DNA from: Escherichia phage vB_EcoM_PHB05
Length of the DNA: 64,000 nucleotides
Direction: 5' to 3' (one strand)
Sequence record: NC_052652.1
Of this stretch, positions 1 to 56,445 are shown one piece after another; the first letter of the stretch is position 1; every line of letters begins with the position of its first letter. A program made the position numbers and the translations under genes. The notes under the pieces were generated by a model. The model did not search any database, was not told the DNA's origin, and saw only the letters and a program-made list of their open reading frames with translations.

Positions 1-816
1 ACACCAGTGAAATTTTATGCATCCATTGCAATTGGTACAAAATGGAGTGAAATTCCAGTTACGTGTTCAGACGTTGGTTATAATCCAGTAGGTACAGAAA
101 GTATTACAGGTATTTCTTCAACGTTTACAGGCTTTTTAGATACAGGTAACTTCTATCCGTTCTCTCCAGGTACAGATGTTGAAACAGATGCAGAATTCCG
201 TTCTCGTTTCAATGATAATATGGATGAAGCTAATGCTGCTACTCGTGCTGCTATTGTTAAAGCTCTATTACTGACAGATGGTGTGACAAAGGTTAAGATT
301 TATGATAACCCTACACTACACGATCAGGAACATGCTCCAGCTATGACATTCCAGACTATTGTGTATGGTGGTACAGCAGAAGAAGTTGCACAGGTTATTT
401 ATAATACTAAGCCTATTAACACATTAACTTATGGTACGACAGCAATTACTATCGTAACAGAAGATGGTGGTCAAGAAGTAATTCGTTTTTCTCCTGGTGA
501 TAATGCGGAATACTCACTTAAACTGGTATATCAAACTGGTAATGGTAGTGTGTTAAGTACAACAGAAAGAGAAAATATTGTTTCTGCTCTTGCAAACTTA
601 CAGGCTTATTTTGAATTAGGGTCAACAGTAACTAACGACCAGATAAAAGGTGTAATTTATTCTGCACTTGCGTTCGGACGCTTGACTTCTCTCCGTGTTT
701 ATGTTAAACTTAATACTGAGGATGACAGTAAATATAATGAGGGAGATATCACTCCAGCGTACAATGTTGTACCATCCTTTGACCTTGATAATATTTCCTA
801 CGAGTACGGAGTCTAA
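1..816 (+). CDS. Virion structural protein, probable baseplate component; reading frame is open to the window edge so the 5' end may lie outside
   Basis: Track ORF 7..816 (GTG at 7), same frame has no stop back to position 1; sits directly upstream of tail-fibre and fibre-chaperone genes in a P2-like J-I-H-G order. Confidence 0.4.
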   Translation, partial: TPVKFYASIAIGTKWSEIPVTCSDVGYNPVGTESITGISSTFTGFLDTGNFYPFSPGTDVETDAEFRSRFNDNMDEANAATRAAIVKALLLTDGVTKVKIYDNPTLHDQEHAPAMTFQTIVYGGTAEEVAQVIYNTKPINTLTYGTTAITIVTEDGGQEVIRFSPGDNAEYSLKLVYQTGNGSVLSTTERENIVSALANLQAYFELGSTVTNDQIKGVIYSALAFGRLTSLRVYVKLNTEDDSKYNEGDITPAYNVVPSFDLDNISYEYGV

Positions 817-818
817 AA

Positions 819-1448
819 ATGGCAGTGAGTGTTGACCATGTGACAACGTGGGATAGTATCAATGAAGATGTTAAAGACCTACTGATTGAAGATTTTAAAT
901 CTTCTCCGAACATTGTCAAACTACTCTATATCATTTCTAGCGAAAAACAAAAGATAGATCAGGCAATGATCTATCTTGCCAAACACCGCTTAATCTCTAC
1001 TGCAACTGGTAAGTATTTAGATCTTATTGGTGAAGAGATGGGGATGGAGAGAAATGGTGCTACGGATGAAGAGTATCGTACAATATTAAAAATCAGGGCT
1101 TATCGTGTTGCGTCTTCTGGTACGCGAGATGATATCATTGATATGTTCGCTCGTTTTACAGGAACAGAAAAAGAAACGATCAATACATACGTTGGATTAA
1201 ATAAAACATTCGACGTATTCTTTTATAATTTGTGTCTACAATCCGATCAGGCAGTAGCACAGTTACTTAACGTTTTCCCGATCCTAAGTAGTTATCGCTT
1301 AGGTGCGAAAGCGGGTGCAGCCTTTGGTTTCACTTCCTATTATGCCACAAAGCCACCTCATGGTATAGGTGGTTTAGGTTCTCTTTACACAGAGGCTGAA
1401 GGAGATGATACAGGGCGAATGACTATGCTGATAGCTCAAATAGAATAA
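819..1448 (+). CDS. Virion structural protein (baseplate or fibre-proximal), 209 aa
   Basis: Tightly packed between the putative baseplate gene and the tail fibre gene; no catalytic motif recognised. Confidence 0.35.
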   Translation: MAVSVDHVTTWDSINEDVKDLLIEDFKSSPNIVKLLYIISSEKQKIDQAMIYLAKHRLISTATGKYLDLIGEEMGMERNGATDEEYRTILKIRAYRVASSGTRDDIIDMFARFTGTEKETINTYVGLNKTFDVFFYNLCLQSDQAVAQLLNVFPILSSYRLGAKAGAAFGFTSYYATKPPHGIGGLGSLYTEAEGDDTGRMTMLIAQIE

Positions 1449-1461
1449 GGAGTTACTCTTA

Positions 1462-2442
1462 ATGGCAAAGCCACAATACTACCCTGACTGGGCGACACAA
1501 ACAGTAACCCTCCCAGGAACGGGAAACACAAACAAGATTAGACCAAAAGAAACCATCCGTAATGTCGGTATGGACTTTGGTCAGATTATGACTTGTGAAG
1601 AAATGAACTGGATCTTAAACAATATTGGGTCTTGGATTCGCTATATGCAAGATGAATTCTTCCCAACATTGCCTACTACATATCTTCCTATAGTCGGTAC
1701 TAAAATTACAATGGCAGGTGATGCTACAGGTGAAGTTACATGGAACGGTAATGCTGCTGTAACATTGTCTATTCAAGTCGTAGATAACAGCCATAATCAC
1801 TTATCAGCTAACATTACAGACGCAACATCAAACCAAGTTGTAGGGAATGTCCTTGTTAAGCGTGATAATGGTGGTGCTATCTATGCAGGTGATATTTACA
1901 CTTGTGGTACAGGTGCTACAGATCCTGCAACATTATTTTTTAGAAACTATAACGGACAAACAGTAGGCAATATGTCTTCTGAACCAGGTGCAGGTGGTCA
2001 ACTCTATATTTATAGAATAAATCCATCTACTGGAGGAACATCTTGTGGAGTTCGTTTGTATGATGCAGGTTATGTTTTAATAGACAATCCTCGTTCTAAT
2101 TCTGGTCAAGACACTGGCAATGGTAATGCTCTTGTAAGATTAGATTATCTTAACTCAAGACTAAACTCATTGCAAAGTACATTGCAAAATAATATTAACA
2201 ACGTTAATAGCAACTTGCAAGGCCAAATTAATAACATTAACAATAGAGTTTCTTCTGTTGTGTCTTCTATCCGTCTAGGTACACGTATTAAAGCTGGTGT
2301 ATCTGAATCTCCTTTCTATGCTGGTCACGTGATCACAGGCTGGGGTTTTGGTGATAAGAAAGAACTTCGTGGTGCTTGGTATTGGTCTGCTCCGCTACAA
2401 TATTACATTAATGGTAGGTGGATAACAGTAACCAACGTTTAG
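1462..2442 (+). CDS. Tail fibre protein, 326 aa
   Basis: Gly/Asn/Thr-rich, Asn/Gln-rich coiled segment (LNSRLNSLQSTLQNNINNVNSNLQGQINNINN); immediately followed by a tail-fibre assembly chaperone. Confidence 0.5.
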   Translation: MAKPQYYPDWATQTVTLPGTGNTNKIRPKETIRNVGMDFGQIMTCEEMNWILNNIGSWIRYMQDEFFPTLPTTYLPIVGTKITMAGDATGEVTWNGNAAVTLSIQVVDNSHNHLSANITDATSNQVVGNVLVKRDNGGAIYAGDIYTCGTGATDPATLFFRNYNGQTVGNMSSEPGAGGQLYIYRINPSTGGTSCGVRLYDAGYVLIDNPRSNSGQDTGNGNALVRLDYLNSRLNSLQSTLQNNINNVNSNLQGQINNINNRVSSVVSSIRLGTRIKAGVSESPFYAGHVITGWGFGDKKELRGAWYWSAPLQYYINGRWITVTNV

Positions 2443-2454
2443 TAAGGAGAACAC

Positions 2455-3006
2455 ATGAAAAAAGATGTTATTTACACTGGCTTTGAACTATATCAACCAG
2501 AATTGACAGAAGAAAATGTCATGTATCTTTCAATAGGTGCTGGTTTTCTTAAAGATAAAGATGGTAATGATTGGTACGAAATTCAGAAATATTTATCCAA
2601 AAATTACCCTGATGCCTATTTCTTAACTCTAGATCACAACAATGTAGTTGTTGCAGCTACGAAAGATGTTTCTACATATTTTCCCGCTGGTCTTACTGTT
2701 CTTGTAACATACAATGTTCCAGATAAGATAGAAGAAGAAAGCAACCTAGGATCGTGGAGATATGACAATGGTAAGTTTGTTTCTCATAATGGGTTTGCAA
2801 TAGAAGATGCCAACCTTAAAATGGAAAAAGAATTAACTTGGGCCACAAATCAAATATCTGCAATTCAAGATTTAGAGGAATTACAAGGTTTATCTGAAGA
2901 ACAAAAAGATTGGTTAGGAAAAGTTAAACTATATCGTGCAACACTGATTCAAATTAACGTTGAAGATGCACCTAATATAACTTGGCCTACAAGACCTAAG
3001 AAATAG
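2455..3006 (+). CDS. Tail fibre assembly chaperone (Tfa-like)
   Basis: C-terminal signature typical of the phage tail-fibre assembly family: ISAIQDLEELQGLSEEQKDWLGKVKLYRATLIQINVEDAPNITWPTRP; RBS AGGAG upstream. Confidence 0.65.
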   Translation: MKKDVIYTGFELYQPELTEENVMYLSIGAGFLKDKDGNDWYEIQKYLSKNYPDAYFLTLDHNNVVVAATKDVSTYFPAGLTVLVTYNVPDKIEEESNLGSWRYDNGKFVSHNGFAIEDANLKMEKELTWATNQISAIQDLEELQGLSEEQKDWLGKVKLYRATLIQINVEDAPNITWPTRPKK

Positions 3007-3015
3007 GGGTAATGT

Positions 3016-3357
3016 ATGGAGCTAACAGAAGTATGGGATATCGCTAAAGAGGCGATTATCCCTCTTATTGGTGTAATCTGGGTGGTCTTCAAACAGAAGA
3101 TAGATGATATAGCAAGTGATTTGGATAAAATGGAAGACAAATACCGTGAACTAGAAAAGAAGTTGGTGTTTGTTGAATCCACTTATGCTACCAAAGCAGA
3201 ACTTGCTCAAATGCTTAACCAGATCAACTCTACATTAATGGCAAATAATACTGCCTTAGAACAGAAAATTGAAAAAATAATGGATTTAAAAAATGCTCCT
3301 GTTCAATTAATGCTAGAGGAGATTACGAAGCGCACACAAAGTAAGGACAAAAATTAA
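3016..3357 (+). CDS. Hypothetical small protein with N-terminal hydrophobic helix and coiled coil, 113 aa
   Basis: IIPLIGVIWVVF hydrophobic segment then charged helical region; ATG overlaps next gene start (TAATG at 3357). Confidence 0.35.
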   Translation: MELTEVWDIAKEAIIPLIGVIWVVFKQKIDDIASDLDKMEDKYRELEKKLVFVESTYATKAELAQMLNQINSTLMANNTALEQKIEKIMDLKNAPVQLMLEEITKRTQSKDKN

Positions 3358-5771
3358 TGGCGAATTTTCCAACATATCCTGCTACGACACTAGAACAAGG
3401 TGTTGATCTGGTTATATTCTCGTCTAACCAGATGCATGATGTTATTAACGGGGATGCTACAGCAACTGTAGAAACCGAAACAGGTTTAATACCTACACTG
3501 CGTAAAGCACTTGTTGATAACTTCTTCTTTAAGAGTCCTGTTGCTTGGTCAGCAGGATCAACTGAAACTGTATTTAACCAGTTACGTTATTTTGAAAACG
3601 GCATCTTGAGTGGGTACTACTATGCCCCATCTGCCACTACTGCGAACCCTGTACCTATGCAGGGTACACCTGTAGGAGACAGTAACTGGACTCTGTATGC
3701 TCTTAAAACTGAACAGTTAGCTTCAGATGTGTATCCTTGGTATTTTAAAGGTGCTACAGGGTATGAGACAGAAATCAGTCCTCCTTATATCTTTGATAAT
3801 GCTATTGTCACCATTAACGGTGTAATTCAGATTCAGGGTGAAGCATTTACTATCAAAGATAGTAAAATTATTCTGGCAGAACCATTAGGTTTAGATCCGT
3901 CTACTGGTCTACCTAACAAATTGTTTGCTTTTATTGGTAAAACAACAGCCTCTACTTCTTACGTAGAGAAAAACCTTTTGTCATCTACCACTGGTGCAGC
4001 AATGGTTGGTCTTCCATCTGGAGGCAATCTGTTACAAGCTCAATACTTTGTAACGCCTGAGCAGTTTGGTGCAATTGGTGATGGAGTTACCGATGATACT
4101 CAAGCAATTCTAAAAACCATTACTTTCGCTAACACGAATAACATTCAAGTACGTGCAGATAAGAATTATAGATTCACAAGCTCAATTGCTATGTCTGGTA
4201 TTCGTTGGTATGGTGGTACATTCACTGGTAACGGTGGAACAATGATTTCTACTGTGTCCTGTTGGATTGAAAACGTTCGCTTTGAAAAATGTTATGTTAA
4301 GATGTTAGGTGGTGATTGCCGATTCTATCGTAATATCTTCTCCAACGCAACATCTACAGCAGCATTCTTAATGCAAGCAATGACAAGTGAAGGTACGTTG
4401 GACTTCAGTTACAACGAGATGTATGGTTGTAAATATGCGATCCTGCAACAAGGTACTGGAGAAGTAATGACCTATGGGCGTTACTCTAACAACTACATTC
4501 ACGATATCAAAGGTGATGCTATTGAACTTAACGTAGTTCAAAGACACTACACTGAAGGTTTGATCATCGAGAATAACCACATTGCTAACGTAGATGCTTC
4601 TGGACAAGGTGCAAACTGGGGTATTGGTATTGGTGTAGCAGGTAGTGGCCCATATGGTGTTGATGCTCCTGATTCACAATATGTACGTAACTTCAGTATC
4701 GTTGGAAATAGAGTTTACAATTGCCGTCAATGTCTACACGTTGAAATGGGTAAAAACTTCACAATACGTGATAACGAAGTTTATCCTAACACAGCAGTTT
4801 CAACAGGTACAGGTTTAACTACTTGTGGTGTTGCATTATACGGATGCCAAGACTTTGAAGTTGATGGTTTAACTGGTTATCTGCTTAATGATCCGTCTGT
4901 TTCAACACGCATGGTCTTTATTGACTGGGGTGTTAACGGTGGAAGATATGCGGGGCCACCAATTAACTTTACAATTAAGAATTTGGATATTCCAGAATCT
5001 TCGATTGAGATTGCAACGGCTGGATCAGACGCCTGGGAAAACTCTACAATTGTTAGTAACATCAATTGTAATGATTTTAAATGGCGTGGGCTACCATCTA
5101 GCTCTACTTTTAATAATATTCGTTGCCGTAGTATTGACTTTATTGGTCAACACGGAAGCGGAGAAGGAAGTGGTGGCGGTTTCTATGCTCGCAGCCAATT
5201 CACTTATATGAAGTGGGTAGGATGTACAGCACTTAGCGGAGATGAAACAACAGTTTCTTTTGCTAAAATCTACACGGATCGTTGCGATCAGGTTGGAAAT
5301 AACTTTGGTGTTCCAACTGCTGTTGATGGTACAGGTCATCGTGGGCCAGTCTTAACCACTATTTCTGAACAATATTTTACAGATTATGATGAATTCCCAG
5401 GTGGGCGTGACTTCCCTACTGGAACAGTTATTCATTGTGCAAGCGGTAAAAAACACGTTGTTACAGTAGGTGGTGCTTTCTTTAGTAATAAAGAGAAAAT
5501 AAAAGCAACTGTTACAGGTCAAACCTATCTACAGTCTAATGCTTTAAACTGGGCTAGTAATGGCTACGCTAAAGCGGCAGGTACTAAGATTGTTATTCCA
5601 GGTGCAGGAGCAAATGGTGGCGATCTTGTGACAACTATAGCACGTGCTACATATGTGACAAATAGTTTGTACACAATAGATATTGCAGATCCAATTGTAA
5701 CACCTACAGCAGAGAATACACAAATTAAAGCTCTGAACCCTGTTACTTTTGTTACTGTCAATAATGCTTAA
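3357..5771 (+). CDS. Tailspike / receptor-binding protein with pectate-lyase-like right-handed beta-helix (putative polysaccharide depolymerase), 804 aa
   Basis: Motif QFGAIGDGVTDDTQAI characteristic of the pectate-lyase superfamily N-cap; repeated N/G/T-rich strands typical of a beta-helix. Confidence 0.6.
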   Translation: MANFPTYPATTLEQGVDLVIFSSNQMHDVINGDATATVETETGLIPTLRKALVDNFFFKSPVAWSAGSTETVFNQLRYFENGILSGYYYAPSATTANPVPMQGTPVGDSNWTLYALKTEQLASDVYPWYFKGATGYETEISPPYIFDNAIVTINGVIQIQGEAFTIKDSKIILAEPLGLDPSTGLPNKLFAFIGKTTASTSYVEKNLLSSTTGAAMVGLPSGGNLLQAQYFVTPEQFGAIGDGVTDDTQAILKTITFANTNNIQVRADKNYRFTSSIAMSGIRWYGGTFTGNGGTMISTVSCWIENVRFEKCYVKMLGGDCRFYRNIFSNATSTAAFLMQAMTSEGTLDFSYNEMYGCKYAILQQGTGEVMTYGRYSNNYIHDIKGDAIELNVVQRHYTEGLIIENNHIANVDASGQGANWGIGIGVAGSGPYGVDAPDSQYVRNFSIVGNRVYNCRQCLHVEMGKNFTIRDNEVYPNTAVSTGTGLTTCGVALYGCQDFEVDGLTGYLLNDPSVSTRMVFIDWGVNGGRYAGPPINFTIKNLDIPESSIEIATAGSDAWENSTIVSNINCNDFKWRGLPSSSTFNNIRCRSIDFIGQHGSGEGSGGGFYARSQFTYMKWVGCTALSGDETTVSFAKIYTDRCDQVGNNFGVPTAVDGTGHRGPVLTTISEQYFTDYDEFPGGRDFPTGTVIHCASGKKHVVTVGGAFFSNKEKIKATVTGQTYLQSNALNWASNGYAKAAGTKIVIPGAGANGGDLVTTIARATYVTNSLYTIDIADPIVTPTAENTQIKALNPVTFVTVNNA

Positions 5772-50488: not shown

Positions 50489-51616
50489 ATGAAATACACG
50501 ATTTATGGTGATATTGTAAGTGTAAATAAAGATATGGGTGTGGAATCTAATTATCTTCCACCTGGATTCTATACTGTTAGTCGTGATCCCCTTGGCAATT
50601 ATTTTTTAAGCCGTGGTAATCTAACAGGTGTACCGGATGTTCTGTATGGTGAAACAGAAAAACGAGCAAATCACGTTATCCGTACATTCCATCGCCGGAG
50701 TGCACAAGGTAAAAATACAGGTTTGCTTCTGACAGGAACTAAGGGCAGTGGTAAAACTATGTTAGCCAAGCTCATTAGTCGTGACCTTGTAGAAGAAGGT
50801 ATTCCAACTATTATGGTTACTCAAGCCTACAGTGATGCTAATTTCATTGAACTTATTAGCAAGATCACCGACAAAGCAGTGATTATTTTTGACGAGTTTG
50901 ATAAAGTATATGAGAAGAAACAAGATCAAGAAGCACTTCTCACTTTGTTAGATGGTACTGGCAGTGGTAATAAACTGTTTATTCTAACTAAAAACAGTGG
51001 CTTTATCTCTGAATTCTTTCTAAATCGTCCTAGTCGTGTGTTTTATAATTTTAATTATGATAAAATCTCACTAGAAACTATGATTGACTATTTAGATAAA
51101 AACCTGGATAACAAAGCACACTTTGATAATTTCCAAAGACTTTGGGATGTAAGTTTAGAGTTGTCCTTTGATGTGATCCAAGGTATAGTAGAAGAACTTA
51201 ATTTCTACCCTGATTTATCCTTTAAAGAATGCATCTCTATGATGGGCGTTTCTTTGGGTGGTGGTAATAAATGGGATATCAGTAGCGTTATTATTAATGG
51301 AAAACTTCAGAAAGTTAGCTGGGTATCTAGTTGGCATAACTTTACACCTGCAATCTTTTTAGGTGGCTCGTGCACACTAGACGTGTACTTGTCATCTCCA
51401 AGTGATGCAGATTCTAAAGAAGCCCTTGCTAATAGCTCTTACGTGGTTTTTGATGATGAAGGCGATGCTCGAATTCCGTTGAATGCGACAAAAATGAAAG
51501 CAGACCTTATCACAGGCGGTAAAATCGTTGTGTTTAGTGATGATCCAGAAGATTCTTTCCGTATTGTTCTGGAACCAACTATCACCAATGGTGCAACTTT
51601 GGCAAGTGTGTTTTAA
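50489..51616 (+). CDS. P-loop AAA+-type ATPase, copy B (paralogue of 34564..35724), 375 aa
   Basis: Walker A GTKGSGKT, Walker B VIIFDEFDK, ILTKNSG, NRPSRVFY; N-terminal 80 aa and ATPase core align with copy A, C-terminal third diverges. Confidence 0.6.
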   Translation: MKYTIYGDIVSVNKDMGVESNYLPPGFYTVSRDPLGNYFLSRGNLTGVPDVLYGETEKRANHVIRTFHRRSAQGKNTGLLLTGTKGSGKTMLAKLISRDLVEEGIPTIMVTQAYSDANFIELISKITDKAVIIFDEFDKVYEKKQDQEALLTLLDGTGSGNKLFILTKNSGFISEFFLNRPSRVFYNFNYDKISLETMIDYLDKNLDNKAHFDNFQRLWDVSLELSFDVIQGIVEELNFYPDLSFKECISMMGVSLGGGNKWDISSVIINGKLQKVSWVSSWHNFTPAIFLGGSCTLDVYLSSPSDADSKEALANSSYVVFDDEGDARIPLNATKMKADLITGGKIVVFSDDPEDSFRIVLEPTITNGATLASVF

Positions 51617-51632
51617 GTAAGCCAGCAAATAA

Positions 51633-51656
51633 AAACCCGCTTCGGCGGGTTTTCTT
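51633..51656 (+). terminator. Rho-independent terminator (AAACCCGC TTCG GCGGGTTTTCTTG)
   Basis: 8-bp stem, UUCG loop, T-run. Confidence 0.65.
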
Positions 51657-51690
51657 GTATTGATGCCAGATTTAATAAAAGGAGTAGTAG

Positions 51691-52863
51691 ATGGTAGCAC
51701 TAAAATCATGGGAACAATATAAAGAAGAATTAATACCCCTTGCTAAAAATCACAATATTCAAATCTTGGGTTATGTTGGTGAATGGAAAGGGAACAAGAC
51801 TAAACTTAAGCTATCTTGCCCTAAACATGGAGAGTGGAACACCACGAACATTAATGATTTTAAGAAGGGACGTGGTTGTCCTATCTGTTCTGGTAAGAAG
51901 CCGTTAACATGGGAAACAGAATTGCCGATCTTGGAAGAGATAGCACAGAAGAGGGGGTATCAGGTGTTAGGGTACGTGGGAGAATGGAAAGGGAATAAAA
52001 CAAAACTTGATTTGTTGTGTCATTGTGGTAATAAATGGGATACTACAAGTATTAACAATTTTAAACGTGGTAGCGGTTGTCCACAATGTAAGAGGGAGAG
52101 ACAAACAATGTCCGACGATCAACATATTGCAGATTTCTTTTCTACAGGGGAATTTAAGGAAGGCACTATCTTCACCAATACAGGGAAACGTAACAAGCGT
52201 GATGCAGTATGGATGGTTGAGTGTCCTGTTTGCTCCCATGATGAATATGTTCAAGCAGGTGTTTGTGATGGTAAATTTTACTCTGCAGGACATAACCTTA
52301 AACAAGGGTATATTCCGTGTCGTTGTGGGAACTATCAGTATACAGAAGACCAGATCACCTATAGGGTAAAAAAGGAAGTAGAAGGGAAAGGGTATGTCTG
52401 GGTAGATTGGATTACCAAACCCTCTTCTATAGGTAAGTTTAAATATCTTTGTCTTGTGCATGGTGAGCAGATAGGGAGTGCTCGTAATTTATTAAGCCTC
52501 GGTCAAGGTTGTCCACAGTGTGCTGGTCATAATCAACAGCAATTATATATTAATATTGTTAAAGATAATGGTATTATAGTTGCTCTTAAGTTTGGTATAT
52601 CTAAAGATAGCGATAGACGATTAAACGGTCAAAATAGCCGTAATCTGTTTTTTATGGAGCGTATTTGTTTATATGATTTTAGCACAGTGAAACAATGTAG
52701 GGCTGCTGAAAGAGCTATAAAGAAAAAATTAAAAACTGGTATTTTAACGGCAAGAGAGTTGAAAGATGGTTATACAGAAACAGTAAGTGTTTCTGATTTG
52801 GAAAATCTTCAAAAAATTATTACACAATATGGTGGCAAATTAGTATACAGTAAGGAGGTGTAA
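51691..52863 (+). CDS. Tandem zinc-ribbon-repeat protein with C-terminal GIY-YIG/T5orf172-like domain (putative nuclease), 390 aa
   Basis: Repeated modules GYVGEWKGNKTKL-L-C-HGEW-TT-IN-FK-G-GCP-C (four copies, paired cysteines); C-terminal IVALKFGISKDSDRRL resembles the T5orf172 signature. Confidence 0.4.
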   Translation: MVALKSWEQYKEELIPLAKNHNIQILGYVGEWKGNKTKLKLSCPKHGEWNTTNINDFKKGRGCPICSGKKPLTWETELPILEEIAQKRGYQVLGYVGEWKGNKTKLDLLCHCGNKWDTTSINNFKRGSGCPQCKRERQTMSDDQHIADFFSTGEFKEGTIFTNTGKRNKRDAVWMVECPVCSHDEYVQAGVCDGKFYSAGHNLKQGYIPCRCGNYQYTEDQITYRVKKEVEGKGYVWVDWITKPSSIGKFKYLCLVHGEQIGSARNLLSLGQGCPQCAGHNQQQLYINIVKDNGIIVALKFGISKDSDRRLNGQNSRNLFFMERICLYDFSTVKQCRAAERAIKKKLKTGILTARELKDGYTETVSVSDLENLQKIITQYGGKLVYSKEV

Positions 52864-53415
52864 ATGCGGATTACTGATAAGTATGTGTTCTTCTTCTCGG
52901 CAAAAGATGAATTTAGCAACTGGTATCTATCATCTTTTATTGAACCTTTAGCACCCAAGTATAATAATTCTATTACAAGTTCTGTTGAATTTACTTGTGT
53001 GGAACAATATATGATGTGGAGAAAAGCATGTTTGTTTTATGATTACAGTATTGCATCTTCTATTTTAACCGGAGATCTAAGATATACAGGAGAAAAAGAA
53101 CAAGCATATTATAAACGACTAGGCAGATTAGTTAAAGATTATGATGAAGATACCTGGGCTTCTTTACGGGAGAAGATTGTCAAGCGTGGTTTGTATCTTA
53201 AATACACACAAAATGAAGATCTCAAAAATAAACTTATCGCTTACGCAGATAAGGAGTTCGTAGAGGCAAGCCCCTATGATTCTATTTATGGTATCAAAAT
53301 GGGGATGTGGGATCGGGACGTGGAAAATAAGGATTGTTGGAAAGGACAAAATCTTTTAGGAAAATGGCATACAGACCTTGCTGTTTATCTAAAATCACAA
53401 TCTGATATTTCCTGA
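52864..53415 (+). CDS. NADAR-domain protein (YbiA-like), 183 aa
   Basis: Motif FFFSAKDEFSNWYLSSF ... FTCVEQYMMWRKACLFYD matches the NADAR/DUF1768 signature (FF..SNW...F.S.EQ.mM..KA..F.D). Confidence 0.6.
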   Translation: MRITDKYVFFFSAKDEFSNWYLSSFIEPLAPKYNNSITSSVEFTCVEQYMMWRKACLFYDYSIASSILTGDLRYTGEKEQAYYKRLGRLVKDYDEDTWASLREKIVKRGLYLKYTQNEDLKNKLIAYADKEFVEASPYDSIYGIKMGMWDRDVENKDCWKGQNLLGKWHTDLAVYLKSQSDIS

Positions 53416-53631
53416 TATTTTGAAAATTTTTATTTTTATAAAAAGGGGTGTGGGTTTCATGTACGGAAATCCACCCTCTGAATAATATATCCAGAGTAAG
53501 TAGTATTCTATACCCTGTTAATAAAGTATTTAATTTGTTTGTTGGACTATGGTATCTGATCTTTAAAAGGCATACTATCTCTTAACTACTACTTATAACA
53601 GAACAGTAAAATCATTTTTATAAAAAGTACA

Positions 53632-53845
53632 AAATTATTTAAAGTTTTTACAGATTTTTGGATACAAATTTTGAAAATGAAAAGTTCAAGTTTGGTCAAA
53701 ATTATTTAAAGTTTTTGTACGTATTTCTATCCAGATTTTGAAAATGAAAACTTCAATTTTTTAAAAATTCCCCAGTTTATTTAAAGTTTTTTTGCCTTTT
53801 TCCGTAGAAAAATCAAAAATGAAAAGTTCAATTTCGTGTTTTTAT
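53632..53845. repeat. Three tandem direct repeats of about 68 bp (core ATTATTTAAAGTTTTT ... ATTTTGAAAATGAAAAGTTCAA)
   Basis: Core strings TATTTAAAGTTTTT and TTTTGAAAATGAAAAGTTCAA each recur three times at about 68-bp spacing. Confidence 0.6.
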
Positions 53846-53857
53846 GGGTATGCGTAT

Positions 53858-53975
53858 GATAATCATTCTCATTTGTAAATGAGAATCATTATCATTTAAT
53901 TATGTAAATGATAAGCATTCTCACTAAGAGAATGAGAATCATTAGCAAATGAGAATTTTTCTCATTTAGAGAATA
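53858..53975. promoter_or_regulatory. Array of Fur-box-like palindromes (AATGAGAAT C ATTCTCATT and GATAATCATT units)
   Basis: TGATAATCATTCTCATTTGTAAATGAGAATCATTATCATTT... contains several overlapping near-matches to the enterobacterial Fur box GATAATGATAATCATTATC. Confidence 0.45.
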
Positions 53976-54228
53976 ACGCGCAGGGGCGGTGTTTGTCTCG
54001 CGCTCCCGTGTCCCCTCGCCATACAATAAGAATAGCATAACCAACAACAAAAGCAAGCGATTATTTTTATCTTTACATTTCTTTACAAATTTATTTTGGA
54101 CGAGCTACCGGCGATCAACCTTCCAACCAGTGCCCCCTGGTATGTTAGCCCCGCCTTTACGCCGTGGGGGTGGCGTTTCCTCTTCTGTATGTAAAACAGT
54201 ATAAGCCCGATCCCTGGGCTTGTCAAGA

Positions 54229-54495
54229 TTATTTTTTGTTTTCTTGCCAGGAAAGGACACCTAACCAAAAATACATATCGCCCCGCGCCCCTGGCGGGAT
54301 CTTGCTTTCCCCGCCGCCACTGCAAGCCCATAAATAACCATTTACGAACGTATCAAAGTGATCTATCTCTTCCACCTTATGATCGCCCAGGTTGAGAACG
54401 GTTTCAACCTTTAAGCCCGTTGCGCTTGCTACCTGGTGCACCGTGCCGCCTTGCCAGCCCAATGAGTGCATGAGATGTAAAGGAGTATTTGTCAT
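54229..54495 (-). CDS. Early-block small protein (leftward gene of divergent promoter pair), 88 aa
   Basis: Track ORF; preceded on the - strand by a TTGCTA-17-TATTAT promoter, a GC stem-loop and AGAAAGGG RBS, the same cassette layout as the + strand early genes. Confidence 0.4.
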   Translation of the reverse strand: MTNTPLHLMHSLGWQGGTVHQVASATGLKVETVLNLGDHKVEEIDHFDTFVNGYLWACSGGGESKIPPGARGDMYFWLGVLSWQENKK

Positions 54496-54516
54496 GGTAT
54501 CGCCCTTTCTTTGATG

Positions 54517-54575
54517 TGCGCCCTGGTTGGCGCGGTAGAAAGATAATAGCCGTTTCCTTTATAGATAGCAAGCAA
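54517..54575 (-). promoter_or_regulatory. Leftward early promoter (TTGCTA -17- TATTAT) plus leader stem-loop (GCGCC AACCAG GGCGC)
   Basis: Read on the - strand; mirrors the + strand cassette architecture. Confidence 0.45.
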
Positions 54576-54605
54576 AAAAGAAATGAAAAAAAGATTAAAA
54601 AAATG

Positions 54606-54658
54606 GTTGACGTTCCTCACCTGGTAGCGTAGTATTCATCTTGTCGAGGGGGCAATAG
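54606..54658 (+). promoter_or_regulatory. Rightward early promoter (TTGACG -17- TAGTAT) plus leader hairpin (GGCA ATAG TGCC)
   Basis: Divergent from the previous promoter; followed by RBS and ATG at 54689. Confidence 0.5.
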
Positions 54659-54688
54659 TGCCGCTCATAACAGAAGAGAGAAATAATC

Positions 54689-54961
54689 ATGGCATCATAT
54701 AGCGCATCAATGATCGTAATGGGTATCACTGGTAAACCTATGCGCGGTGGCGGATCTTTCGCTAATATTAATATTGATGGGCGTTTATCCCTGGATGCAG
54801 CGATCACAGTGGCACGGGAAACATTTAAAAAAGAATGTAATTTCAATAAACAAGATTATCTCGGTTTCGCTATTGAAAAAACCGCGCGCTTTGTGGATTA
54901 TAAAAGCCCGAAAATGATTGATACTACACTAAAAGCGCAAGATGTAGCGTTTTTGCTTTAA
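54689..54961 (+). CDS. Early small protein, 90 aa
   Basis: Track ORF with promoter and RBS. Confidence 0.45.
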   Translation: MASYSASMIVMGITGKPMRGGGSFANINIDGRLSLDAAITVARETFKKECNFNKQDYLGFAIEKTARFVDYKSPKMIDTTLKAQDVAFLL

Positions 54962-54964
54962 GGC

Positions 54965-55025
54965 TTGACACTGAAAAATATTTTGGTAATATATACCACA
55001 TAAGGCGGGGAAATGGTTTCCCGCC
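54965..55025 (+). promoter_or_regulatory. Early promoter (TTGACA -17- TAATAT) followed by conserved leader stem-loop GGCGGGGAAATGGTTTCCCGCC
   Basis: Exact -35 consensus, 17-bp spacer, stem-loop at about 55004..55025, then CAAAGAAAGGG RBS and ATG 55048. Confidence 0.6.
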
Positions 55026-55047
55026 AAATCAAAGAAAGGGTAATGCA

Positions 55048-55410
55048 ATGAGCAAGCAAATCAATACTATCATGTTTAATCTGGTATCTTTCCGCGATGA
55101 CGTGAAAAACCTTTCGCGTGATGCAGTGGATGCACGGATCGAAAGCTATCGCACACAGATCGCAACGTTACCGCTGAAACGTGATCAACATGCCGCTAAT
55201 ATGATGCTTGATGCTATGATTAAAAAGATGATTCAATGTGATCTTACCATGGCTTATGAATATGCTGGCGATCTCTTTGTAACATATAGCAAGCCCGTTC
55301 CAGGTATGAGCACCACGGAAGAATTGCATGCCTTAAATCTGCGACAAGATGCATGGGATAACATGCGCCGTGTTATGGTATGGGTAGAAAGCGGTAAAAT
55401 TTACGAATAA
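55048..55410 (+). CDS. Early small protein, 120 aa
   Basis: Track ORF with cassette upstream. Confidence 0.45.
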   Translation: MSKQINTIMFNLVSFRDDVKNLSRDAVDARIESYRTQIATLPLKRDQHAANMMLDAMIKKMIQCDLTMAYEYAGDLFVTYSKPVPGMSTTEELHALNLRQDAWDNMRRVMVWVESGKIYE

Positions 55411-55416
55411 AAACGG

Positions 55417-55471
55417 TTGACATTGCACTAAAACCTGATAAGCTATCTTAAAGCGGGAATAGTTCCCGCTT
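55417..55471 (+). promoter_or_regulatory. Promoter-like TTGACA plus stem-loop AAGCGGGAATAGTTCCCGCTT
   Basis: -35 exact; -10 weak (TAAGCT); hairpin variant with compensatory changes. Confidence 0.4.
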
Positions 55472-55488
55472 ACATAGGATAAAACTTT

Positions 55489-55635
55489 ATGAAACAATAT
55501 GTAATGAGTATTCACACCAAAAACGGCGCTACTGTTACGACTCCGGCACGGTTTGCACTTGTAAACCGTTGCAAGAGACTAAAACGAGAGTTAAAAAATA
55601 ACCGTGCAACGGGCTTTAAACGCTGGGGAGGATAA
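55489..55635 (+). CDS. Small basic peptide (48 aa), not in ORF track
   Basis: ATG follows the stem-loop and AGGAT RBS; translation MKQYVMSIHTKNGATVTTPARFALVNRCKRLKRELKNNRATGFKRWGG. Confidence 0.3.
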   Translation: MKQYVMSIHTKNGATVTTPARFALVNRCKRLKRELKNNRATGFKRWGG

Positions 55636-55637
55636 TC

Positions 55638-55898
55638 TTGTTTTTTCTAAAAGTTTTTGATAATGTGATCGCTTTTGAACATGCTACAACGTTCGACCTG
55701 GCGAGATACGCTATCAGGTTTAAAGATAATGTTTATCCCCGTGCTGGCGGCGGTTACACTATTTTTAATCATCGCAACGCGCAACTGACTGATATAACTA
55801 ATCCAGGCCCTGGAGTGTATCGCATAGGCTGGCTACCGTCAAAAGACGCTGCAAGCATGTTTAAGGTATGTAAACTACTAACAGAAGAGGCGAACTAG
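55638..55898 (+). CDS. Early small protein, 86 aa (TTG start per ORF track)
   Basis: Track ORF; GGGGAGGA RBS 6 nt upstream of the TTG. Confidence 0.35.
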   Translation: MFFLKVFDNVIAFEHATTFDLARYAIRFKDNVYPRAGGGYTIFNHRNAQLTDITNPGPGVYRIGWLPSKDAASMFKVCKLLTEEAN

Positions 55899-55899
55899 C

Positions 55900-56445
55900 A
55901 TGGGGCGTGAATATGTGATCCAGTCCTGGGTAAAGCATGACGCAAATGATCCGCGCATAATACCAGATGACATGATCGATCACATGGTAGGGTATAGCGG
56001 GGAGCAGATAGGAAATCGAGCGGCAAAGAGCAACGGCAACACCAGGACGAGATCCGTTCGCCCTGGATGGCTGGCGAATGGTAATGCTGACATTGCAAGC
56101 GCCGCAGATCCAAGCGATGACGCTAAAAATAATCCCTTATACAGCATTGATCCGGCTTTTAAGGTGTTGGAAGAGTATCCCGCTAAATTAGCCGCACTAG
56201 ATAAGGCATACGCAGAAAAGCGCATGGCATGGACTGTATACAACACCGCTAAAATGGTGCTAGATGCAAAACTAATTAAAGCCCAGGAGAAGATCAATAA
56301 ACTTGTCACCATAGCGCAAGAGGAAGACCAGGAGGAAGAGGAAGAAATCATGCCTAACCTGGAAGAGGAAGAGATCCAGCCATACACGCCGACAGAAGAG
56401 GAAAAAATACAAGCCTTAAAAAATTATAAAAATTGTATTGTGTAA
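55900..56445 (+). CDS. Early protein with strongly acidic C-terminal tail, 181 aa
   Basis: C-terminus QEEDQEEEEEIMPNLEEEEIQPYTPTEEEKI; coiled-coil middle region. Confidence 0.45.
   Translation: MGREYVIQSWVKHDANDPRIIPDDMIDHMVGYSGEQIGNRAAKSNGNTRTRSVRPGWLANGNADIASAADPSDDAKNNPLYSIDPAFKVLEEYPAKLAALDKAYAEKRMAWTVYNTAKMVLDAKLIKAQEKINKLVTIAQEEDQEEEEEIMPNLEEEEIQPYTPTEEEKIQALKNYKNCIV

What the first reader, a model, noticed from the sequence alone, without database searches (positions are those of the whole stretch)
51691..52863. Four tandem zinc-ribbon modules fused to a GIY-YIG/T5orf172-like domain
The repeating unit GYVGEWKGNKTKL-L-C-HGEW-TT-IN-FK-G-GCP-C occurs in near-identical form twice and in degenerate form twice more, followed by a C-terminal segment resembling T5orf172-type nuclease domains. 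This could be a DNA-recognition array guiding a nuclease (homing endonuclease or anti-host nuclease).
Basis: seen in the sequence. Interest (0 to 1): 0.45.

Follow-up and report, generated by a model that had tools for sequence, protein, structure and literature searches.

The report
Phage zinc-finger-array GIY-YIG endonuclease
This gene of a phi92-like E. coli phage encodes four zinc-finger DNA-binding modules joined to a GIY-YIG-type (T5orf172) nuclease, a described class of putative phage homing endonucleases; its one notable local feature is that the finger array varies greatly between near-identical phages while everything around it is conserved.

Summary

The architecture is already published: Barth et al. 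2023 describe T5orf172 putative homing endonucleases with repeated CapR/DUF723/DUF4379 fingers. The protein is homologous to ICP1 gp165 (E 3e-23), and orthologs such as phi92 gene 222 are annotated "endonuclease".

Details found here:
- The family follows the pattern A(n)-B-A4-nuclease, with n = 1–4.
- Within Justusliebigvirus the gene appears fixed and intact. The finger array is 39–100% identical, mosaic, with 3, 4 or 5 modules; the flanking genes are 97–99.7% identical and the nuclease domain 87–98%.
- The divergence boundaries are sharp (51689 and about 52555).
- Two more distant relatives have an empty site at this locus, and one of them carries a homolog elsewhere.

Verdict: an uncharacterised member of a known kind. 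It is most likely a sequence-specific DNA endonuclease. Whether it is selfish or domesticated is unresolved.

The parts
51632..51653 (+). Intrinsic terminator hairpin (AAAACCCGC-TTCG-GCGGGTTTT followed by a T-rich tail) between the upstream ATPase gene and the endonuclease gene
   Evidence: A terminator is annotated at the same place in phage PATM. A GC hairpin followed by a T-run, read by eye and not scanned, follows the ATPase in the empty-site phages KP2025 and Tr1.
51678..51684 (+). Ribosome-binding site AAAGGAG, 6 nt before the ATG
   Evidence: Read directly from the sequence. An AGGAG RBS is annotated at the same place in phi92.
51691..52863 (+). Complete gene, 390 codons plus stop: a CapR-finger-array T5orf172 endonuclease, ortholog of phi92 gene 222
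51691..51900 (+). Module M1 (aa 1-70), A-type CapR finger. Zn ligands C43, H46, C63, C66 (CxxH...CxxC)
   Evidence: Pfam CapR 46.7 bits. Ligand positions. This module is deleted in frame in ESCO9 and phiWec187.
51901..52101 (+). Module M2 (aa 71-137), A-type CapR finger. Zn ligands C110, C112, C130, C133 (CxC...CxxC)
   Evidence: Pfam CapR 60.8 bits. 54% identical to M1. C130 and C133 are invariant and C110 is nearly invariant (at least 90%) across 61 homologs; C112 is not listed as conserved.
52102..52338 (+). Module M3 (aa 138-216), B-type CapR finger. Zn ligands C178, C181, C210, C212 (CxxC...CxC, the order reported for CapR)
   Evidence: Pfam CapR 52.4 bits. No pairwise similarity to the other modules. 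The four cysteines are conserved in at least 90% of homologs.
52339..52533 (+). Module M4 (aa 217-281), divergent A-type ('A4') CapR finger. Zn ligands C254, H257, C274, C277
   Evidence: Pfam CapR 20.9 bits, below the gathering threshold when scored alone. The ortholog HMM links it to M1 and M2 at 1e-15 to 1e-17. C277 is invariant; C254, H257 and C274 are conserved in at least 90%.
52534..52860 (+). T5orf172 (GIY-YIG superfamily) nuclease domain, aa 282-390. Invariant residues: Y286, K300, G302, R310, Q314, E340, D359, G360, E363, T364

Best explanation
The gene encodes a free-standing, sequence-specific DNA endonuclease of the T5orf172/CapR-finger class of putative phage homing endonucleases.

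Proposed mechanism:
1. Four independently folded Zn-binding CapR-type fingers, arranged as beads on a string (A-A-B-A4), together read an extended DNA target.
2. They deliver the C-terminal GIY-YIG-type domain to cut nearby. The active site is built from Y286, K300-x-G302, R310 and E340.
3. In mixed infections the enzyme cuts genomes of related phages that lack the gene or carry a different allele.
4. Recombinational repair from the nuclease-encoding genome then copies the gene, and with it the finger cassette, into the cut genome.
5. Repeated retargeting and cassette exchange would explain why the finger array is hypervariable and mosaic between otherwise near-identical phages. The conserved upstream ATPase/terminator region and the conserved nuclease-domain DNA would serve as recombination arms.

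Shown here: the domain composition, complete ligand sets, the nuclease fold, invariant motif residues, homology to named family members, the intergenic free-standing position, empty sites, and sharply bounded hypervariability.

Inferred: Zn binding, DNA binding, cleavage, the nature of the target, and the drive behaviour.

Confidence breakdown: about 0.8 that it is an active, DNA-targeted nuclease of this family, and about 0.45 that its present role is selfish homing or allele competition and not a domesticated function. The single figure given (0.6) is a compromise between the two.
For: Domain content and family:
- Four CapR domains and one T5orf172 domain. PHROG 681 'endonuclease', E 1e-86.
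- 14 of 17 diverse C-terminal domains hit T5orf172.

Nuclease fold and residues:
- C-terminal model pLDDT 94.4.
- Invariant residues in 61 homologs: Y286, K300, G302, R310, Q314, E340, D359, G360, E363, T364. The Zn ligands are conserved too, from at least 90% to invariant.

Homology to named members:
- ICP1 gp165, a putative homing endonuclease: E 3e-23.
- Phage T5 gene T5.141, 'endonuclease': E 8e-9.

Literature:
- CapR's DNA binding requires its four cysteines (PMC8096241).
- T5orf172 HEGs regularly carry repeated CapR/DUF723/DUF4379 fingers, and those repeats recombine. The T5orf172 nuclease Odn needs a conserved Glu (PMC10448857).

Free-standing and mobile on the long time scale:
- The gene lies between a terminator and the next gene.
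- It is absent from the cognate position in Tr1 and KP2025. There the ATPase terminator is followed directly by genes that lie downstream of the endonuclease in ESCO13.
- KP2025 carries a 47%-identical homolog about 20 kb away, in a different neighbourhood.

Cassette-like hypervariability:
- Mean pairwise nucleotide identity is 0.96-0.99 in the flanks, 0.74-0.85 from 51689 to about 52555, and 0.93-0.97 in the nuclease domain.
- Modules assort independently among phages.
- Justusliebigvirus orthologs have 3, 4 or 5 modules. The wider family follows A(n)-B-A4-T5.
Against: - In Justusliebigvirus the gene looks fixed. The counts match (54 records with a close ATPase, 54 with a homolog at 60% aa identity or more). 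All 13 copies inspected are intact ORFs. The classical homing cycle predicts sporadic presence and decayed copies.
- The nuclease domain is under purifying selection (dN/dS 0.25). That fits a maintained, useful function as well as it fits a selfish one.
- No target site could be identified.
- The T5orf172 Pfam score is borderline. There is no significant sequence link to a solved GIY-YIG enzyme.
- The equivalence of E340 with I-TevI E75 rests on topology only.
- The second GIY-YIG tyrosine is Lys (K300). From my own knowledge, not tested here, this is the usual T5orf172 form.
- Homing has not been demonstrated experimentally even for the ICP1 members of this family (PMC10448857).
Confidence: 0.6

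Rival explanations
1. Domesticated targeting nuclease. The same molecular machine is kept by the phage because it destroys something harmful or competing: a phage satellite or other mobile element (as ICP1 Odn cuts the PLE origin), a competing unrelated phage, or host DNA. The finger array then diversifies in an arms race with that target.
For: - The gene is apparently fixed and intact at one locus across the genus, and present at the same position in Phapecoctavirus.
- The nuclease domain is under purifying selection, with elevated dN/dS in the fingers (0.31-0.85, against 0.006-0.08 in the flanking genes).
- There is precedent. Odn is a domesticated T5orf172 nuclease, and close relatives of this phage (Inny, Muut, Mt1B1_P17) are proposed to carry Odn-like RepA_N-T5orf172 anti-satellite nucleases (PMC10448857).
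Against: - No nucleotide-level relative of the finger array exists in 5,426 complete E. coli genomes. The Odn-like genes, by contrast, share DNA with satellite repA (PMC10448857).
- dS is also raised 3- to 10-fold in the array. This points to import of old, divergent cassettes by recombination more than to point-mutational adaptation.
- There is no PADLOC match and no identified target.
- Nothing links the gene to host DNA degradation.
Confidence: 0.3
2. Mainly a DNA-binding regulator. The finger array binds phage promoters or operators, as the satellite protein CapR represses the ICP1 capsid operon, or as I-TevI autorepresses. The nuclease domain would be inactive or rarely used.
For: - CapR, the founding member of the finger domain, is a transcriptional repressor derived from such nucleases (PMC8096241).
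- Nuclease-less finger arrays exist among the homologs, for example P0079 and P0083.
Against: - The GIY-YIG-type residues Y286, K300, G302, R310 and E340 are invariant across 61 homologs down to 25% identity. The nuclease domain is the most conserved part of the protein.
- A regulator of a conserved phage promoter would not be expected to have a hypervariable, copy-number-variable DNA-binding array while the rest of the genome is about 98% identical.
Confidence: 0.07
3. [not shown]
For: - No solved structure matches the modules.
Against: - The best fold matches are true nucleases.
- The conserved residues coincide with catalytic positions.
- Family members act on DNA experimentally: CapR in EMSA (PMC8096241) and Odn in cleavage (PMC10448857).
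Confidence: 0.03

Closest known systems
ICP1 (Vibrio phage) T5orf172 putative homing endonucleases with CapR-homology domains, e.g. gp165 and gp174 (Netter 2021, PMC8096241; Barth 2023, PMC10448857)
   Same: - Same architecture: N-terminal repeated CapR-type Zn fingers and a C-terminal T5orf172 nuclease.
- Direct sequence homology: gp165 aligns to aa 1-319 at 28% identity, E 3e-23.
- Free-standing genes.
- In-frame gain and loss of finger repeats between isolates (compare the 228-bp gp174 deletion with the roughly 183-231-bp indels here).
   Different: - Different host and phage lineage.
- Here there is a single copy per 64-kb window and no paralogs, whereas ICP1 carries many.
- Here the gene is apparently fixed and intact across a genus and not sporadic.
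- A regular A(n)-B-A4 module pattern with two finger subtypes.
PLE CapR, the capsid repressor of the Vibrio cholerae phage satellite
   Same: Same Zn-finger domain family (Pfam PF21817). M3 shares CapR's CxxC...CxC ligand order.
   Different: CapR has no nuclease domain and acts as a transcriptional repressor. It is encoded by a satellite, not a phage.
[quoted passage not shown]
   Same: Same T5orf172 nuclease family. The E. coli examples occur in the same phage subfamily as this window (PMC10448857).
   Different: Their DNA-binding domain is RepA_N, captured from satellites, not CapR fingers. No host-resident DNA relative of this array was found.
Free-standing GIY-YIG homing endonucleases of T4-like phages (I-TevI, Seg proteins)
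   Different: - Domain order is reversed: in I-TevI the nuclease is N-terminal.
- The second Tyr of the motif is Lys here.
- DNA binding in I-TevI is by a helix-turn-helix plus a single Zn-finger linker, not a finger array.
- There is no significant sequence similarity.
SLX1 / At-HIGLE structure-specific GIY-YIG nucleases
   Different: These are eukaryotic and structure-specific, not sequence-specific. They pair with a RING/PHD domain and SLX4. Identity is 14-16% only.
Engineered zinc-finger nucleases and fast-evolving eukaryotic finger arrays (PRDM9, KRAB-ZNF). Analogy only, from general knowledge
   Same: Tandem Zn-finger modules give composite DNA specificity. Variation concentrates at particular finger positions on a fixed scaffold, and finger number varies.
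   Different: The finger fold is unrelated (not C2H2) and the modules are about 65-80 aa. No recognition code is known. The nuclease is fused naturally.

Membership tests
CapR homology domain (Pfam PF21817) | Match to the family HMM above the gathering score | tested here: met
   Whole protein 146.3 bits against a gathering threshold of 24.2, in 4 stretches. Scored alone: M1 46.7, M2 60.8, M3 52.4, and M4 20.9, which is below threshold alone.
CapR homology domain (Pfam PF21817) | Two conserved pairs of Zn ligands per domain (CxxC...CxC in CapR; PMC8096241) | tested here: met
   All four modules have four ligands. Eleven of the twelve ligands in M2-M4 are conserved in at least 90% of homologs (three invariant). 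C112 and the M1 ligands are not listed as conserved in the 61-sequence alignment. M3 has the CapR order. M1, M2 and M4 have C-x(1-2)-[CH]...CxxC.
CapR homology domain (Pfam PF21817) | Zn-dependent sequence-specific DNA binding | not testable with these tools
   Shown for CapR by EMSA with Cys-to-Ser mutants (PMC8096241). Not tested for this protein.
T5orf172 domain (Pfam PF10544; GIY-YIG clan) | Match to the family HMM above the gathering score | tested here: met
   20.9-22.9 bits against a gathering threshold of 20, aa 291-349 on profile positions 9/10-69 of 101, which is borderline. 14 of 17 diverse homologs also match, best E 1.6e-5. MUG113 matches in 11 of 17.
T5orf172 domain (Pfam PF10544; GIY-YIG clan) | GIY-YIG alpha/beta fold | tested here: met
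   [not shown]
T5orf172 domain (Pfam PF10544; GIY-YIG clan) | Conserved active-site residues (first Tyr, Arg, metal-binding Glu) | tested here: inconclusive
   Y286, K300-x-G302, R310 and E340 are invariant and lie on beta1, beta2, alpha1 and the helix after beta3. The only sequence alignment to I-TevI places G302 on G19 and R310 on R27, but it is not significant (E 0.13). The E340-to-E75 equivalence is by topology only.
T5orf172 domain (Pfam PF10544; GIY-YIG clan) | Endonuclease activity | not testable with these tools
   Shown for Odn (cited in PMC10448857). Not tested for this protein.
Homing endonuclease gene (free-standing HEG) | Free-standing ORF inserted between conserved genes | tested here: met
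   It lies between the ATPase terminator (51632-51653) and the NADAR gene, whose ATG directly follows its stop codon.
Homing endonuclease gene (free-standing HEG) | Presence/absence polymorphism at the locus among related genomes, and copies at other loci | tested here: inconclusive
   Met at the subfamily level: Tr1 and KP2025 lack it after the ATPase, and KP2025 has a homolog elsewhere. Not met within Justusliebigvirus or in the sampled Phapecoctavirus genomes, where it is always present.
Homing endonuclease gene (free-standing HEG) | Decayed or frameshifted copies, as expected from the invasion-decay cycle | tested here: not met
   All 13 inspected orthologs are intact ORFs. Only in-frame module gains and losses are seen.
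Homing endonuclease gene (free-standing HEG) | Cleaves the cognate HEG-less or variant allele and is copied into it (super-Mendelian inheritance) | not testable with these tools
   This needs cleavage mapping and co-infection crosses. It is unverified even for the ICP1 T5orf172 genes (PMC10448857).

The most novel reading that the evidence does not exclude
The locus may be a fixed 'cassette site' where co-infecting phi92-like phages fight allele against allele. Each finger array would direct the shared nuclease against rival arrays or their neighbourhood, so the gene persists by perpetual re-homing among alleles and not through invasion and decay. The CapR modules would be true specificity cassettes: one module reads a few base pairs, through the hypervariable positions on a fixed scaffold. 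That would make this a natural, evolvable zinc-finger nuclease with a recognition code that could be worked out.
Probability: 0.12. Interest if true: 0.7.

Novelty: new member of a known kind. Interest (0 to 1): 0.3.

Why it matters
On its own this is an ordinary annotation result. A 'hypothetical protein/endonuclease' of phi92-like coliphages belongs to the published T5orf172/CapR-finger class of putative homing endonucleases.

It has modest extra value as a clean natural experiment for that class. Dozens of sequenced phages are about 98% identical around the gene and keep the nuclease domain, yet they carry finger arrays that differ in number (3, 4 or 5) and in module identity (39-100%), with sharp boundaries.

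Such a panel, in a tractable E. coli phage group, could be used to test three open points:
- whether these enzymes really home;
- what they cut;
- whether CapR fingers recognise DNA in a modular, transferable way.

All three remain open for the whole family. The last would matter for engineering nucleases.

Tried and rejected
- Whole-chain Foldseek against the PDB gave only noise (best E 8.6e-3, TM about 0.1). The four flexibly linked small domains have no fixed mutual orientation. I remodelled the C-terminal domain alone, which worked.
- Profile-to-PDB sequence searches gave nothing useful. The full-length profile gave only weak matches to ribosomal protein bL31, another Cys4 Zn protein (E 0.013). 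The nuclease-domain profile gave only a chance match to RF1 (E 5).
- hhalign of the nuclease-domain profile against I-TevI (sequence verified) was not significant (E 0.13). The catalytic-residue mapping therefore rests on topology and conservation.
- A search for paralogs of any module or of the nuclease domain elsewhere in the 64-kb window found none.
- Tandem Repeats Finder found no DNA-level tandem repeat. The only DNA repeat is the 49-nt M1/M2 core at 78% identity. I therefore rejected 'recent duplication' for M1/M2.
- blastn of the finger-array DNA against 5,426 complete E. coli genomes found no match. This gives no support for recent exchange with a host-resident satellite or prophage.
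- PADLOC gave no hit for this protein.
- A search of the Barth et al. supplements for the ortholog accessions found only the genomes (Inny, Muut, Mt1B1_P17), not this protein.
- tRNA and Rfam scans of the non-coding stretch downstream found nothing.
- I considered and rejected 'M3 and M4 are decaying repeats'. Both keep complete, conserved ligand sets and are the constant part (B-A4) of the family architecture.
Full report
**Context**

The window comes from a phi92-like E. coli myophage (Justusliebigvirus, Stephanstirmvirinae). The 2.5 kb around the finding is 99.2% identical to phage JohannJBalmer and 92-99% identical to about 54 other records.

Upstream lies an AAA-type ATPase gene (50489..51616; PHROG 2376). 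Downstream, with its ATG directly after the stop codon, lies a NADAR-family gene (52864..53415).

**Checking the observation**

Pfam finds four stretches of the CapR homology domain (PF21817; whole protein E 3e-43) and a borderline T5orf172 match (PF10544, 20.9 bits against a cut-off of 20).

Scored one at a time, the modules give:

| Module | CapR bits (cut-off 24.2) |
|---|---|
| M1 | 46.7 |
| M2 | 60.8 |
| M3 | 52.4 |
| M4 | 20.9 |

The repeat is real, but it is not quite as described.

- M1 and M2 are 54% identical (E 1e-18; z = 25 against shuffles).
- M4 is a weaker relative of M1 (33%; E 2e-4; z = 7.5).
- M3 has no significant pairwise similarity to the others.

M3 is a different CapR subtype. 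Its ligands are in the order CxxC...CxC, which is the order reported for CapR (PMC8096241). M1, M2 and M4 have C-x(1-2)-[C/H]...CxxC.

All four modules keep four metal ligands. Eleven of the twelve ligands in M2-M4 are conserved in at least 90% of homologs, three of them invariant; C112 and the M1 ligands do not reach that level in the 61-sequence alignment. M3 and M4 are therefore not decayed.

The identical 14-residue core of M1 and M2 (LGYVGEWKGNKTKL) is encoded by DNA that is only 78% identical. Tandem Repeats Finder sees no DNA repeat. The identity is kept at the protein level and does not come from a recent duplication.

**The nuclease domain**

The full-length AlphaFold model is confident locally (mean pLDDT 90.2) but has a low pTM of 0.47, as expected for beads on a string. 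It gave no useful whole-chain Foldseek match.

The C-terminal 112 residues modelled alone gave pLDDT 94.4 and pTM 0.87, with beta-beta-alpha-beta-alpha topology.

The Mhr1/mL67 GIY-YIG-like proteins also appear.

In an alignment of 61 homologs reaching down to about 25% identity, the invariant residues of this domain are Y286, K300, G302, R310, Q314, E340, D359, G360, E363 and T364.

By position in the model these correspond to:

- the GIY tyrosine on beta1;
- the YIG turn on beta2, with Lys in place of the second Tyr (the usual T5orf172 form, from my own knowledge);
- the Arg on alpha1;
- a Glu on the helix after beta3.

I infer that this Glu (E340) is the counterpart of the metal-binding E75 of I-TevI. 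The only sequence alignment to I-TevI puts G302 on G19 and R310 on R27, the expected register, but it is not statistically significant.

Fourteen of 17 diverse homologs independently match T5orf172.

**What is already known**

CapR is the capsid repressor of the V. cholerae satellite PLE. Its DNA binding requires four cysteines. It was recognised as derived from the N-terminal domains of ICP1 T5orf172 putative homing endonucleases (PMC8096241).

Barth et al. 2023 (PMC10448857) surveyed 229 T5orf172 genes:

- 87% carried CapR, DUF723 or DUF4379 (printed 'DUF4397' in parts of the paper) Zn fingers.
- Many carried several, described as 'beads on a string'.
- They documented in-frame repeat deletions and domain swapping between genes.
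- Homing itself was not verified experimentally.

My protein is directly homologous to ICP1 gp165 (aa 1-319, E 3e-23), one of those named genes. It is also homologous to a phage T5 'endonuclease' that likewise follows a terminator between two conserved genes.

RefSeq annotates orthologs as 'endonuclease' (phi92 gene 222, muut, alia). UniRef names one 'CapR homology domain-containing protein'.

The kind of thing is therefore known. This particular ortholog group has not been characterised. I did not find it by accession in the paper's supplements, although the genomes of Inny, Muut and Mt1B1_P17 are in its data set.

**What the comparison with relatives adds**

*(a) Architecture.* Across 75 homologs the pattern is regular: A(n)-B-A4-T5 with n = 1-4. 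The B-A4-nuclease core is constant and the number of N-terminal A modules varies. Thirty proteins have 3 modules, 31 have 4, seven have 5 and five have 6.

*(b) Sharply bounded hypervariability.* I compared nine Justusliebigvirus genomes.

| Region | aa identity to the window | dN/dS | dS |
|---|---|---|---|
| ATPase | 99.5-99.7% | 0.006 | 0.08 |
| NADAR | 96.7-99.5% | 0.08 | 0.11 |
| Endonuclease (whole) | 70-98% | – | – |
| Finger modules M1-M4 | see (c) | 0.31-0.85 | 0.29-0.82 |
| Nuclease domain | 87-98% (11 genomes) | 0.25 | 0.13 |

Mean pairwise nucleotide identity is 0.96-0.99 up to the start codon. It falls to 0.74-0.85 from 51689 to about 52555, the end of M4. It recovers to 0.93-0.97 in the nuclease domain and beyond.

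The raised dS shows that much of the divergence is imported, old sequence. Recombination explains it better than local point mutation.

*(c) Mosaicism.* Modules assort independently among phages:

- phi92 and PATM keep M1/M2 at 73-78% but M3/M4 at only 39-47%.
- muut has M1 at 57% and M2-M4 at 82-91%.
- PD114 has M2 at 42%.

*(d) Module number within the genus.* Orthologs have 3 modules (ESCO9 and phiWec187, through an in-frame loss spanning the M1/M2 repeat), 4 modules (this window, phi92, muut) or 5 modules (J-01, cardinal, alia, PaulScherrer).

*(e) Where variation falls within a module.* Variation is concentrated at a dozen positions around and between the two Zn knuckles. The ligands and the hydrophobic scaffold are fixed. 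That table pools A and A4 modules, so it overstates the variation.

**Mobility**

Within Justusliebigvirus the gene appears fixed. Fifty-four records have a close ATPase (at least 80% nt identity), and 54 have an endonuclease homolog at 60% aa identity or more. This is a match of counts, not a one-to-one check.

It occupies the same position after the ATPase in Phapecoctavirus (ESCO13, nepoznato). All 13 copies I inspected are intact.

At greater distance there are clean empty sites. In Citrobacter phage Tr1 (Stephanstirmvirinae) and Klebsiella phage KP2025, the ATPase (71-75% aa identity) and its terminator are followed directly by small genes. In ESCO13 those same genes lie downstream of the endonuclease.

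KP2025 carries a 47%-identical homolog about 20 kb away, among unrelated small genes.

The gene is therefore an intergenic insertion that has moved on the long time scale. It does not show the sporadic presence and decay expected of a classical homing cycle on the short one.

**Expression context**

A canonical intrinsic terminator (51632-51653) precedes the gene, followed by a strong RBS (AAAGGAG, 51678-51684). No convincing sigma-70 promoter lies between them. Expression probably depends on read-through or on a phage-specific promoter. That is inference.

**Interpretation**

The best-supported molecular function is a sequence-specific DNA endonuclease. A four-finger array selects the target and a C-terminal GIY-YIG-type domain cuts nearby (confidence about 0.8).

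The biological role is less certain.

- I favour homing or allele competition in mixed infections. The conserved flanks and the conserved nuclease-domain DNA would act as recombination arms for exchange of the finger cassette. This explains the sharp boundaries, the mosaicism, the raised dS and the empty sites.
- The fixed, intact state of the gene and purifying selection on the nuclease fit a domesticated weapon against satellites or competitors almost as well, on the model of Odn.
- Against that rival, I found no host-resident DNA relative of the array in 5,426 E. coli genomes and no PADLOC match.
- A purely regulatory, nuclease-dead role is unlikely, given the invariant active-site residues.

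**Verdict**

The finding is a new, uncharacterised member of a published family, not a new kind of system.

Its interest lies in the sharply bounded hypervariable finger array in an otherwise near-identical set of coliphages. That panel could be used to test homing, target choice and finger modularity for the whole family.

Noticed in passing
window 52864-53415 (+): The gene directly after the endonuclease, with its ATG immediately following the stop codon, is a NADAR-family protein (Pfam PF08719, E 3.4e-36). It also matches the PADLOC candidate-defence model PDC-M42C (E 1.9e-34). Some records annotate it as a YbiA-like N-glycosidase. It may reverse ADP-ribosylation (my inference).
   Followed up: partly
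window 50489-51616 (+): The upstream AAA-type ATPase (PHROG 2376) is annotated variously as 'ATPase', 'FtsH-like protease', 'GTP cyclohydrolase II' and 'replicative helicase' in different records. It is almost invariant within the genus (99.5-99.7% aa; dN/dS 0.006), in sharp contrast to its neighbour.
   Followed up: partly
GenBank MG065689.1 and MG065639.1 (hits H111 and H113): Records named 'Campylobacter phage A110a/A150' (host C. jejuni) are 92-95% identical at DNA level to this E. coli Justusliebigvirus region. The host or organism labels are probably wrong, or the samples were contaminated.
   Followed up: no
window 53416-54600: A mostly non-coding stretch of about 1 kb follows the NADAR gene. 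It has several terminator-like hairpins (54151-54298) and a strong sigma-70-like promoter on the minus strand (54226-54198, 11 of 12 matches). GC rises to 0.43 at 54001-56000. Phage inny has a repeat_region annotated at the equivalent place. tRNA and Rfam scans found nothing.
   Followed up: partly
proteins P0025 (669 aa) and P0036 (547 aa): P0025 reads A-B-A4-T5-A4-B-A4-T5, which looks like two such nucleases fused head to tail, or a mis-called gene pair. P0036 reads A-B-A4-A-B-A4-T5, a duplication of the whole three-finger unit.
   Followed up: no
L013 (phage cardinal, PQ567651.1) 301-3454: In this record the ATPase and NADAR genes are each split into two ORFs, while the endonuclease between them is intact (465 aa). 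The splits are probably sequencing errors in the flanks.
   Followed up: no
window ~48000: GC skew changes sign near 48 kb (negative from about 10 to 48 kb, positive after). This coincides with a switch from minus-strand to plus-strand ORFs, so it marks a divergent transcription boundary about 3.7 kb upstream of the finding.
   Followed up: no
proteins P0093, P0097, P0099, P0105, P0115, P0117 and P0119: More distant homologs of the finger modules (DUF4379) are listed with other Pfam domains (PF22799, PF18741) and without T5orf172. The fingers may therefore be combined with other effector domains outside phages.
   Followed up: no
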